The position numbers and the translations under genes are program-made. From Escherichia virus TH47, in the sequence record MT446416.1: DNA of 64,000 nucleotides; one strand, written 5' to 3'. Numbering within the stretch: position 1 is the first letter of the stretch; each line of letters starts with the position of its first letter. Below, in pieces: positions 45,415-45,918 of the stretch. The notes beneath the pieces are model-generated. The model saw nothing but the letters and a program-made list of their open reading frames with translations. It ran no database searches and was not told the origin of the DNA.

Positions 45415-45918
45415 TTATTTTACTTTGACAGTACAGGTTACCTTCTTACCCTGGAATTCAACTTTCTGGACATACGTTACGTTACCCAAACGACTAACGA
45501 ATGATTCCATTGCATCAACGTTGTTTTGGATAACAGTTGCGTTTGTGCCGCGACCTATGGTTTTCATTACAATGTGTACTTGCTTACCTTCTTCTAAGAA
45601 CTTGCCTGCACTTTTCGCTTTAATAAGCAAATCATGCTCTTGAGTTCCGAAGTTGAATTGAATCTCTTTAGTACTAACAGTGTTTTGACGCTGTTTCTTC
45701 AAAGAGGCTTTTTCAGCCTGTTTCAATTCGTATTTGTATTTGTTCAGATCAGTGATTTTAACAGCAGGTTCATCACCTGCTCCAATAACCACCAAATCCA
45801 GACCTTCAGTTTCTGCTAAAGCAAGTGCTTTAGAGATTGCCATGACTTCACTTTTACCTTCCGTAACTAGACGGACAGTTTTTGCGGTGATTTCGTTATT
45901 GGCAATAATAGATTTCAT
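45415..45918 (-). CDS. infC: translation initiation factor IF-3 homolog
   Basis: 167 aa; aligns by eye along E. coli IF3: [54 protein letters not shown] shared, basic linker present. Confidence 0.65.

What the first reader, a model, noticed from the sequence alone, without database searches (positions are those of the whole stretch)
45415..45918. Phage-encoded translation initiation factor IF-3 homolog
The 167-aa product aligns along E. coli IF3 (N-terminal NEI..VRL, G.DLV.I, linker of basic residues, KEI.F, FLEEGK). A phage IF3 would imply direct manipulation of start-codon selection or ribosome recycling; it sits among replication genes next to the Dda helicase.
Basis: partly seen in the sequence, partly recalled or inferred. 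Interest (0 to 1): 0.65.

Follow-up and report, generated by a model that had tools for sequence, protein, structure and literature searches.

The report
Jumbo-phage IF3 gene, already annotated

Summary
Confirmed, and already known. The ORF 45415..45918 (minus strand, 167 aa, ATG) passes the curated cut-offs of Pfam IF3_N and IF3_C and of TIGR00168 infC. It matches PHROG 9787 end to end, and its model superposes on ribosome-bound IF3 (TM 0.75). The window is an Asteriusvirus-type E. coli jumbo phage, 99.7% identical to phage Turkey3. The same gene is annotated as IF3 in most of the roughly 50 related jumbo-phage records and is mentioned in several papers. I found no experimental test of it.

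It is under purifying selection (dN/dS 0.08 against 121Q). It keeps almost all family-invariant residues: K110 (30S binding), Y75, D106, R133 and the tRNA-elbow contacts.

What I add:
- The RFRGR loop reads KTIGR. The R131 position, which touches the start codon, is non-basic in all 26 RaK2-like clade members, but R/K in 78% of other IF3s.
- The gene has its own perfect sigma-70 promoter. With a ClpS-like gene and a conserved terminator hairpin it forms a two-gene unit.
- In 23 of 29 viral IF3 lineages in IMG/VR, IF3 lies beside ClpX and/or ClpS, and in 14 also near ribosomal protein bS21.

Most likely it is an early-expressed working IF3 that supplements or replaces host IF3, possibly with relaxed proofreading.

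The parts
45963..45991 (-). Perfect sigma-70 consensus promoter: TTGACA (45991..45986), 17-nt spacer, TATAAT (45968..45963). The -35 hexamer overlaps the TGA stop of the upstream 64-aa ORF.
   Evidence: It matches 12 of 12 positions. It is one of 7 perfect matches and 28 matches of at least 11/12 in the window, all on the minus (coding) strand. It is identical in Turkey3 and kept as TTGACA-17-TATAAT in 121Q. By my reading of the alignment, RaK2 has TTTACT-17-TATAAT and GAP32 has TTGACT-16-TACAAT at the same place. Function is inferred, not shown.
45929..45932 (-). Shine-Dalgarno GGAG, 10 nt before the ATG of the IF3 gene.
   Evidence: Read from the sequence. GGAG is invariant in the window, Turkey3, 121Q, RaK2, GAP32 and Vibrio phage 2.275.O.
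45415..45918 (-). IF3 homologue coding sequence, 167 aa including the stop codon.
   Evidence: dN/dS is 0.077 against 121Q and about 0.2 against RaK2 and GAP32.
45748..45918 (-). N-terminal domain (residues 1-57, acidic, pI 4.7). It keeps R16 (= E. coli R25) and K54 (= R66), the initiator-tRNA elbow contacts.
   Evidence: Pfam IF3_N covers residues 7-71. The model has the beta-beta-alpha-beta-beta order. Residue mapping is, the role of the residues from PMC9723500, and the charge.
45676..45747 (-). Lysine-rich helical linker (residues 58-81, pI 10), containing Y63 (= E. coli Y75, the site of the infC362 Y75N fidelity mutation).
   Evidence: Helix 58-78 in the model. Translation. Y is present in 25 of 26 clade members. 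The role of Y75 is from PMC7145577.
45418..45675 (-). C-terminal 30S-binding domain (residues 82-167, pI 9.6). It keeps K84, E85, D96, K100 (= K110), K102, K106, G122, R123 and K158.
   Evidence: Pfam IF3_C covers residues 82-165. The domain fold matches 1tig and 2ife. K110L abolishes 30S binding (PMC7145577).
45550..45564 (-). KTIGR (residues 119-123), the diverged counterpart of the bacterial 129-RFRGR-133 loop. I121 replaces R131.
   Evidence: Translation. The alignment to E. coli, T. thermophilus and G. stearothermophilus IF3 is ungapped. The R131 position is V/A/I/T/S/Q in 26 of 26 clade members, against R/K in 119 of 152 other IF3s. All 4 RaK2-like IMG/VR clusters are non-basic there, against 23 of 25 other viral clusters with R/K.
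44856..45401 (-). ClpS-like adaptor gene (181 aa), 13 nt downstream of the IF3 stop, with AAGGA 7 nt before its ATG. It is the second gene of the unit.
   Evidence: A profile of the family hits E. coli ClpS at 1.7e-12 over core residues 62-139. PHROG 15940 scores 1.3e-83. The single-sequence Pfam ClpS hit is only 0.0046, below the cut-off. The adjacency is conserved in 121Q, RaK2, GAP32 and 14 IMG/VR loci.
44784..44842 (-). Conserved hairpin followed by a run of 8 T, terminator-like, closing the IF3/ClpS-like unit. Its 3' arm contains the GGAG Shine-Dalgarno of the following KTSC gene.
   Evidence: Folding energy -20.9 kcal/mol, z-score -7.8, and 0 of 200 shuffles fold as well. It is conserved in 121Q, RaK2 and GAP32 with compensatory stem changes, AAGAT/ATCTT against AAGG/CCTT. 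The simple terminator scan missed it because the loop is long.
44241..44780 (-). KTSC-domain protein gene (179 aa), a conserved downstream neighbour. Whether it belongs to the functional unit is uncertain.
   Evidence: Pfam KTSC 6e-14. It follows the ClpS-like gene in every RaK2-like locus and in Vibrio phage 2.275.O.

Best explanation
The ORF encodes a complete, functional two-domain IF3, inherited vertically within the RaK2/121Q/GAP32 group of enterobacterial jumbo phages. Host RNA polymerase transcribes it from its own consensus sigma-70 promoter soon after infection. It is transcribed together with a ClpS-like adaptor gene, as a short unit ending at a conserved hairpin terminator. The protein most likely binds the platform of the host 30S subunit through its basic C-terminal domain, while its N-terminal domain contacts the initiator-tRNA elbow, as cellular IF3 does. 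This would keep subunits apart and gate 50S joining, raising or replacing IF3 activity so that the phage's canonical Shine-Dalgarno plus AUG mRNAs are initiated efficiently. In this clade the arginine that touches the start codon (E. coli R131) and its neighbours F130 and E134 have been replaced. The factor's inspection of the codon-anticodon pair is therefore probably weakened compared with host IF3. Shown here: homology, fold, residue conservation, purifying selection, gene organisation and its conservation. Inferred: promoter and terminator activity, early timing, 30S binding, and any change in fidelity.
For: Identity. Fold: pLDDT 82 with IF3 secondary-structure order, and TM 0.75 to T. thermophilus IF3 on the 30S. 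Selection: dN/dS 0.077 at dS 0.81 against 121Q. Conservation: the 27 positions most conserved in 138 other IF3s are all kept in the 26-member clade, including D106, K94, R133, Y75, K72, G132 and K110. The charge layout is the same as in E. coli IF3: acidic N-terminal domain, basic linker and basic C-terminal domain. The tRNA-elbow contacts R25 and R66 are kept as R16 and K54. Expression signals: a 12/12 promoter conserved across genera, a conserved GGAG, and a conserved terminator hairpin with compensatory changes. All 28 near-consensus promoters lie on the coding strand. Altered loop. In E. coli, R131P promotes initiation at non-AUG codons, on leaderless mRNAs and with 3GC-mutant tRNA. Swapping RFRGR for the mitochondrial KKGK motif relaxes AUG/GUG discrimination. 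Mycoplasmas carry P/F/Y at this position (PMC11775629).
Against: No experiment on any phage IF3 was found, so ribosome binding and activity are inferred from homology alone. The phage has no apparent need for relaxed start-codon choice. Of 113 annotated CDS in the equivalent Turkey3 region, 111 start with ATG and about 76% have a Shine-Dalgarno-like 4-mer. Its sigma-70-type promoters are followed by 30-60 nt leaders, not leaderless starts. The R131 position varies even between near-identical phages (I in the window, T in Turkey3, S in 121Q). That pattern could mean the residue is simply unimportant here rather than adaptively changed. Only 4 of the 26 basic residues are arginine, which partly reflects the 35% G+C genome.
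Confidence: 0.6

Rival explanations
1. Degrade-and-replace. The co-transcribed ClpS-like adaptor (ClpX in other phages) directs host proteins, possibly host IF3 or ribosomal protein bS21, to the host Clp protease, and the phage IF3 (plus phage bS21 where present) takes their place on the ribosome. The gene pairing would then reflect a direct functional link rather than shared timing.
For: IF3 and the ClpS-like gene form one unit bounded by a promoter and a terminator. In IMG/VR, 23 of 29 viral IF3 lineages have ClpX and/or ClpS within 3 kb. ClpX often overlaps the IF3 start, and 14 lineages also carry bS21 within the 3-kb flank, in most directly after IF3. Atu_ph07 has ClpX then IF3, and Sinorhizobium phage AP-J-162 has the same adjacency (PMC11242549). 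The phage IF3 lacks the basic N-terminal tail of E. coli IF3 (residues 1-11).
Against: Nothing shows that host IF3 is a Clp substrate (one search found no such paper). The module also holds an Hsp20, so the simpler reading is a co-expressed set of early host-takeover and proteostasis genes. In the window's ClpS-like protein, by my reading of the alignment and my recollection of the pocket residues, two N-degron pocket positions are changed (D36 to P, H66 to N), so its specificity is unknown.
Confidence: 0.12
2. Host shut-off by competition. The protein binds 30S subunits but is a poor initiation factor because the mRNA-contacting loop is defective. It would act as a competitive inhibitor of host IF3 that depresses host translation, or biases it against particular mRNA classes.
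For: The 30S-binding residues are kept while the RFRGR loop is not. The inferred expression is early, from a consensus promoter.
Against: A pure blocker would not need the N-terminal domain, the linker tyrosine or the tRNA-elbow contacts, yet all of these are conserved under purifying selection. Phage mRNAs use the same Shine-Dalgarno plus AUG signals as host mRNAs, so a general block would harm the phage as well.
Confidence: 0.12
3. Ribosome-pool maintenance rather than start-site control. The extra IF3 mainly serves subunit recycling after termination, release of RbfA from new 30S subunits, or reactivation of hibernating ribosomes. This would let the phage grow in slow-growing, cold or stationary hosts.
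For: IF3 releases RbfA and becomes limiting under cold and nutrient stress (PMC7145577). Related phages are reported to encode a hibernation-factor-like protein (PMC11895373). Iyer et al. suggest a role in ribosome rescue or in supporting phage translation (PMC7824862).
Against: This overlaps with the main explanation, because it uses the same biochemical activity. It does not explain the clade-specific loss of R131.
Confidence: 0.12
4. A decaying or functionless passenger gene picked up from a bacterium.
For: None beyond the lack of experiments.
Against: dN/dS is 0.08-0.2 across four genera. Gene order, promoter, Shine-Dalgarno and terminator are conserved. Identity to E. coli IF3 is only 40%, and none of 80 viral loci has bacterial infC-rpmI-rplT context.
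Confidence: 0.02

Closest known systems
Bacterial translation initiation factor IF3 (infC; E. coli P0A707, PDB 8jsg, T. thermophilus 5lmn)
   Same: It has the same two domains joined by a Lys-rich helical linker. The charge layout is the same. The invariant residues are the same: K110, D106, Y75, R133, G132, K94 and the R25/R66 equivalents. The fold matches with TM 0.75.
   Different: Identity is only 40% over 120 residues. It lacks the basic N-terminal tail of about 9-11 residues. RFRGR reads KTIGR, without the start-codon-contacting R131, and E134 is G. It has an ATG start with a strong Shine-Dalgarno, where E. coli infC, to my knowledge, has an autoregulatory AUU. It is not in a thrS-infC-rpmI-rplT operon but is paired with a ClpS-like gene.
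Annotated IF3 of RaK2-like jumbo phages (PHROG 9787; Turkey3 XMR01311.1, 121Q gp47, RaK2 ORF153, GAP32_313)
   Same: It is the same gene: 98.8% amino-acid identity to Turkey3, 89.8% to 121Q, 69% to RaK2 and 54% to GAP32. The gene order is identical: helicase, two small ORFs, IF3, ClpS-like, KTSC.
   Different: Nothing substantive. The window differs from Turkey3 at two residues, I121T and A126T, both in the diverged loop.
IF3 of other large phages (Atu_ph07 AUZ94813.1; uncultivated IMG/VR lineages with ClpX-IF3-bS21-Hsp20-ClpS)
   Same: These are viral IF3s with both domains and no bacterial operon context, and they are linked to Clp components.
   Different: They keep a canonical loop, for example RFKGRE in Atu_ph07 and KFRGRE or LRGRE elsewhere. 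They have ClpX directly upstream and usually bS21 directly downstream, both of which the window's locus lacks.
Fidelity-relaxed IF3 variants: E. coli infC R131P, mitochondrial IF3 (KKGK motif), mycoplasma IF3 (P/F/Y at R131)
   Same: The arginine that contacts the start codon is lost or altered within an otherwise intact IF3 (PMC11775629).
   Different: Those systems go with non-AUG starts, leaderless mRNAs or unusual initiator tRNAs. This phage uses ATG in 98% of annotated genes, with leaders and Shine-Dalgarno sequences. Its tRNA-Met genes are elongator-type.

Membership tests
IF3 (Pfam PF05198 + PF00707; NCBIfam TIGR00168 infC) | N-terminal IF3_N domain above the curated threshold | tested here: met
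   59 bits against a cut-off of 26.9, residues 7-71.
IF3 (Pfam PF05198 + PF00707; NCBIfam TIGR00168 infC) | C-terminal IF3_C domain above the curated threshold | tested here: met
   46.2 bits against a cut-off of 34.8, residues 82-165.
IF3 (Pfam PF05198 + PF00707; NCBIfam TIGR00168 infC) | Full-length equivalog model score above the cut-off | tested here: met
   TIGR00168 scores 99.8 bits against a cut-off of 60.
IF3 (Pfam PF05198 + PF00707; NCBIfam TIGR00168 infC) | Two alpha/beta domains joined by a long basic helical linker | tested here: met
   AlphaFold2 model with pLDDT 82 and a linker helix at 58-78. Foldseek gives 5lmn_X at E 4e-13 and TM 0.75, and also matches 1tif, 1tig and 2ife.
IF3 (Pfam PF05198 + PF00707; NCBIfam TIGR00168 infC) | 30S-binding lysine K110 and the basic C-terminal domain surface (R112, R116, R133, R168) | tested here: met
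   K100, K102, K106, R123 and K158. K100 is invariant in the clade. The K110L phenotype is from PMC7145577.
IF3 (Pfam PF05198 + PF00707; NCBIfam TIGR00168 infC) | Linker tyrosine Y75 and the N-terminal-domain tRNA-elbow contacts R25 and R66 | tested here: met
   Y63, R16 and K54. Their roles are from PMC7145577 and PMC9723500.
IF3 (Pfam PF05198 + PF00707; NCBIfam TIGR00168 infC) | Conserved 129-RFRGR-133 loop with a basic residue at position 131 that contacts the start codon | tested here: not met
   The loop reads KTIGR. None of 26 clade members has a basic residue at position 131, against 78% of other IF3s. G132 and R133 are kept.
IF3 (Pfam PF05198 + PF00707; NCBIfam TIGR00168 infC) | Binding to 30S subunits, anti-association activity and start-codon discrimination | not testable with these tools
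   This needs biochemistry or genetics. No published test of a phage IF3 was found.
Bacterial infC gene organisation | thrS-infC-rpmI-rplT operon and a non-canonical autoregulatory start codon | tested here: not met
   The gene has an ATG start. No L35 or L20 gene lies next to IF3 in the window or in any of 80 viral loci. This feature belongs to the cellular gene, not to the protein family.
PHROG 9787 (phage 'translation initiation factor') | Full-length match to the family profile | tested here: met
   5.9e-66, residues 1-167 on profile positions 1-167 of 168.
ClpS adaptor (PF02617), for the co-transcribed neighbour 44856..45401 | ClpS core domain | tested here: met
   The family profile hits E. 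coli ClpS at 1.7e-12 over residues 62-139. The single sequence is below the Pfam cut-off, at 17.1 against 23 bits.
ClpS adaptor (PF02617), for the co-transcribed neighbour 44856..45401 | N-degron pocket residues (E. coli N34, D35, D36, H66; listed from my own knowledge) | tested here: inconclusive
   The alignment gives D, D, P and N at these positions. The pocket is therefore partly altered and its specificity is unknown.

The most novel reading that the evidence does not exclude
RaK2-like jumbo phages carry a re-tuned IF3. It keeps everything needed to sit on the 30S subunit and gate subunit joining, but has lost the arginine that reads the start codon. It is delivered early, together with a ClpS-like adaptor, as the reduced form of a widespread but undescribed viral module (ClpX, IF3, bS21, Hsp20, ClpS). 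That module would swap host initiation components for viral ones, possibly by degrading the host versions, and so change which mRNAs the infected cell's ribosomes accept.
Probability: 0.18. Interest if true: 0.7.

Novelty: already known. Interest (0 to 1): 0.35.

Why it matters
Phage-encoded initiation factors are often cited as evidence that large phages redirect host translation, but none has been tested. This E. coli phage offers a tractable case, because E. coli infC genetics, start-codon reporters, reconstituted initiation systems and cryo-EM are all established. Two observations here give specific hypotheses to test. One is the clade-wide loss of R131 in an otherwise fully conserved IF3. 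The other is the recurrent linkage of viral IF3 to ClpX/ClpS and bS21. The experiments would be an I121R back-mutation, measurement of host IF3 stability during infection, and single and double deletions of the IF3 and ClpS-like genes. If neither observation has functional consequences, the gene is simply one more copy of a known auxiliary translation gene.

Tried and rejected
1. Does the phage need a relaxed IF3 because it uses unusual start codons? No. Of 113 annotated CDS in the Turkey3 region equivalent to the window, 111 start with ATG, 2 with GTG and none with TTG.

2. Does it use leaderless mRNAs? No. Near-consensus promoters are followed by leaders of typically 30-60 nt with Shine-Dalgarno sequences, and none is followed by an ATG at leaderless distance (shortest gap 17 nt).

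3. Does a phage initiator tRNA match the altered IF3? No. The Turkey3 tRNA-Met and the window's intron-split tRNA-Met have a paired 1-72 end and lack the three G-C pairs, so they are elongator-type.

4. Is it a recent capture from the host? No. Identity to E. coli IF3 is 40%. Earlier annotators found their best cellular matches in unrelated phyla. Only 5 of 1.84 billion representative proteins score below 1e-30.

5. The hit in 'Acinetobacter phage MD-2021a' lies in bacterial thrS-infC context and was discarded.

6. A literature search by residue names returned only irrelevant papers.

A profile search of PDB sequences replaced it.

8. The simple terminator scan found nothing on the coding strand. 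The conserved hairpin was found by reading the intergenic sequence and then folding and aligning it.

Full report
An ORF occupies exactly 45415..45918, on the minus strand. It has an ATG start, 167 codons and tandem TAA TAA stops. A GGAG lies 10 nt before the start.
- The product passes the curated thresholds of Pfam IF3_N (59 bits against 26.9, residues 7-71) and IF3_C (46.2 against 34.8, residues 82-165).
- It also passes the NCBIfam equivalog model TIGR00168 infC (99.8 bits against 60).
- Its best solved relatives are the E. coli, T. thermophilus and G. stearothermophilus IF3 chains, at about 1e-15. BLASTP against E. coli IF3 gives 40% identity over 120 residues. I checked my recalled E. 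coli sequence as 180/180 identical to PDB 8jsg_A.

**2. The fold is IF3.** An AlphaFold2 model built on 23 homologues has mean pLDDT 82. It shows a beta-beta-alpha-beta-beta N-terminal domain, a helix at 58-78 and a beta-alpha-beta-alpha-beta-beta C-terminal domain. Foldseek against the PDB returns IF3 chains as 23 of the first 25 matches; the exceptions are a mouse domain of the same fold and a T. brucei mitoribosome entry not labelled IF3. The top experimental hit is T. thermophilus IF3 on the 30S subunit (5lmn_X, E 4e-13, TM 0.75), and the isolated domains 1tif, 1tig and 2ife also match.

**3. It is already known.**
- The window is an Asteriusvirus-type E. coli jumbo phage. The 2.1 kb around the gene is 99.7% identical to Escherichia phage Turkey3, about 98% to vB_Ec-M-J, CMSTMSU and Ecwhy_1, and about 85% to PBECO4 and 121Q.
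- The protein is 98.8% identical to Turkey3 XMR01311.1, which is annotated 'translation initiation factor IF-3'.
- tblastn finds the gene in 92 phage records, including RaK2, K64-1, GAP32, CBB, Serratia BF, Yersinia fHe-Yen9 and Vibrio 2.275.O. Most of the listed jumbo-phage records annotate it as IF3.
- It matches PHROG 9787 over its full length.
- Papers mention phage IF3 in general terms: Al-Shayeb 2020 (PMC7162821), Iyer 2021 (PMC7824862) and the Sharanji genome paper, which says its role in phages cannot be stated (PMC11895373).
- Five literature searches found no experimental test.

**4. The gene is functional and old in this lineage.**
- Nei-Gojobori dN/dS is 0.077 against 121Q (dS 0.81), and about 0.2 against RaK2 and GAP32.
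- A full HMMER scan of 1.84 billion representative proteins finds 5112 relatives, but only 5 below 1e-30. The clade is well separated from cellular IF3.
- Earlier annotators found their best cellular matches in unrelated phyla.
- Gene order is conserved across genera: helicase, two small ORFs, IF3, ClpS-like, KTSC.

**5. Residue-level anatomy.** I aligned 179 IF3 sequences.
- The 27 positions most conserved among 138 non-clade IF3s are all retained in the 26-member RaK2-like clade. They include D106, K94, R133, Y75, K72, G132, P63, E95 and K110.
- K110L abolishes 30S binding, and Y75N is the infC362 fidelity allele (PMC7145577).
- The N-terminal-domain residues that touch the initiator-tRNA elbow, R25 and R66, are R16 and K54 here (PMC9723500).
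- The charge pattern copies E. coli IF3: N-terminal domain pI 4.7, linker pI 10, C-terminal domain pI 9.6.
- Most arginines are replaced by lysines, as expected in a 35% G+C genome.

**6. The one clear departure is the 129-RFRGR-133 loop.** Here it reads 119-KTIGR-123, in an ungapped alignment to three characterised IF3s.
- The R131 position is V, A, I, T, S or Q in 26 of 26 clade members, but R or K in 119 of 152 other sequences. F130 becomes T/A and E134 becomes G.
- Among viral IF3 lineages from IMG/VR, all 4 RaK2-like clusters are non-basic at this position, while 23 of 25 others keep R/K. Atu_ph07 has RFKGRE.
- The only two differences between the window and Turkey3 proteins (I121T, A126T) lie in this loop.
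- According to PMC11775629, R131 contacts bases +2 to +4 of the mRNA at the start codon. R131P promotes initiation at non-AUG codons, on leaderless mRNAs and with 3GC-mutant initiator tRNA. Replacing RFRGR with the mitochondrial KKGK motif relaxes AUG/GUG discrimination. Mycoplasmas carry P/F/Y at this position.
- By analogy, the phage factor probably inspects the codon-anticodon pair less strictly. This is inference only.

**7. Tests of what a relaxed factor might be for all came out negative.**
- Of 113 CDS annotated in the Turkey3 region equivalent to the window, 111 start with ATG and 2 with GTG. About 76% have a Shine-Dalgarno-like 4-mer.
- Near-consensus promoters are followed by leaders of 30-60 nt rather than leaderless starts.
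- The phage tRNA-Met genes are elongator-type.
- The loop change therefore has no obvious cis-acting partner. The variability of residue 121 fits relaxed constraint as well as it fits adaptation.

**8. Expression unit.**
- A perfect sigma-70 consensus promoter, TTGACA-17-TATAAT, lies at 45991..45963 on the coding strand, 44 nt before the ATG.
- The window holds 28 matches of at least 11/12, and all are on the minus strand. These are therefore real signals rather than composition noise.
- The promoter is kept in 121Q. By my reading of the alignment, recognisable versions sit at the same place in RaK2 and GAP32.
- The ClpS-like gene starts 13 nt after the IF3 stop, with its own AAGGA.
- After it comes a hairpin and a T-run (44842..44784; -20.9 kcal/mol, z -7.8). 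It is conserved in four genera with compensatory stem changes. Its 3' arm contains the Shine-Dalgarno of the next gene, which encodes a KTSC-domain protein (Pfam 6e-14).
- I read this as an early two-gene operon transcribed by host polymerase. Activity of the signals was not tested.

**9. The neighbour is a ClpS relative.** The single sequence is below the Pfam cut-off. A profile of 16 family members hits E. coli ClpS at 1.7e-12 over the core. It has extra N- and C-terminal segments, and two of the N-degron pocket positions differ.

**10. Wider context.**
- Scanning IMG/VR with the IF3 alignment gave 80 loci, which fall into 29 clusters at 70% identity or more.
- None has the bacterial rpmI-rplT neighbours.
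- 18 clusters have ClpX directly upstream of IF3, often overlapping it.
- 14 have ribosomal protein bS21, usually directly downstream. 10 have an Hsp20, and 12 have a normal-sized ClpS 1-2 kb downstream.
- Vibrio phage 2.275.O is intermediate: IF3, bS21, ClpS-like, KTSC. Atu_ph07 has ClpX then IF3.
- The ClpX-IF3 adjacency has been noted once, for a Sinorhizobium jumbo phage (PMC11242549). I found no description of the wider module.
- The window's IF3/ClpS-like pair looks like a reduced form of this viral module, which combines translation-initiation and proteolysis/chaperone genes.
- Whether the link is functional (for example degradation of host factors and their replacement) or only reflects shared early timing is open.

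**11. Verdict.** The observation and its identification are correct, and the item is already in public annotation, so novelty is low. The most likely mechanism is a working IF3 made early to supplement or replace host IF3 on host 30S subunits (confidence about 0.6). Weakened codon inspection is a reasonable but unproven corollary. The more novel reading, a re-tuned factor acting with Clp adaptors in a replace-the-host-factor strategy, is not excluded. I give it about 0.18.

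Noticed in passing
window 2174..2478 (-), Rfam hit 2219..2532 (-): A tRNA-Met(CAT) gene is split by a group I intron of about 230 nt inserted right after the anticodon. Rfam Intron_gpI scores 100.5 bits. Joining the halves 2478..2441 and 2210..2174 gives a canonical tRNA-Met in ARAGORN, which missed the split gene. The same interrupted gene is unannotated in Turkey5 and in several Klebsiella jumbo phages, while other relatives have an uninterrupted tRNA-Met.
   Followed up: partly
window about 1450..2154 (-): An ORF of about 234 aa lies directly downstream of the intron-containing tRNA gene and has HNH-like motifs (…ADHIDNDFTNDD…HVDEHRYKTH…). It may be a free-standing homing endonuclease associated with the intron. 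I read it from the sequence and ran no profile search. Turkey3 annotates an HNH homing endonuclease in its tRNA region.
   Followed up: no
whole window, minus strand: All 28 matches of at least 11/12 to the sigma-70 consensus (7 of them perfect) lie on the coding strand and none on the other. This part of the jumbo-phage genome therefore seems to be transcribed largely from host-type promoters.
   Followed up: partly
L025-L090 (IMG/VR viral contigs), e.g. L036 1773..4944 and L055 1746..4626: A recurrent viral gene cluster has the order ClpX, IF3, bS21, Hsp20/IbpA-like, ClpS. A large coiled-coil membrane protein and a protein of about 145 aa often precede it, and some contigs also carry bL12. 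It is seen in most of the 25 viral IF3 lineages outside the RaK2-like group. I found no published description of the module as a whole.
   Followed up: partly
window 44784..44842 (-): The conserved terminator-like hairpin after the ClpS-like gene holds the GGAG Shine-Dalgarno of the KTSC gene in its 3' arm. Read-through transcripts would therefore have that ribosome-binding site sequestered.
   Followed up: partly
window 46159..46187 (-): A second near-consensus promoter (TTGACA-17-TATGAT, 11/12) has its -35 hexamer overlapping the start codon of the 64-aa ORF 45988..46182. A transcript from it would begin inside that ORF, and could serve as an additional long-leader promoter for IF3.
   Followed up: no
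window 1..5100 compared with 44800..46900: The window is mosaic with respect to its closest relatives. The IF3 region is 99.7% identical to Turkey3. The tRNA/intron region matches Turkey5 (99.2%), and Turkey3 has a different, uninterrupted tRNA-Met and a different tRNA order.
   Followed up: no
window 42673..44244 (-) and 46206..46796 (-): The homologues of these two flanking ORFs in phage 121Q (gp50 and gp45) are annotated as structural (virion) proteins, although they sit among replication and translation genes. Neither has a significant Pfam domain.
   Followed up: no
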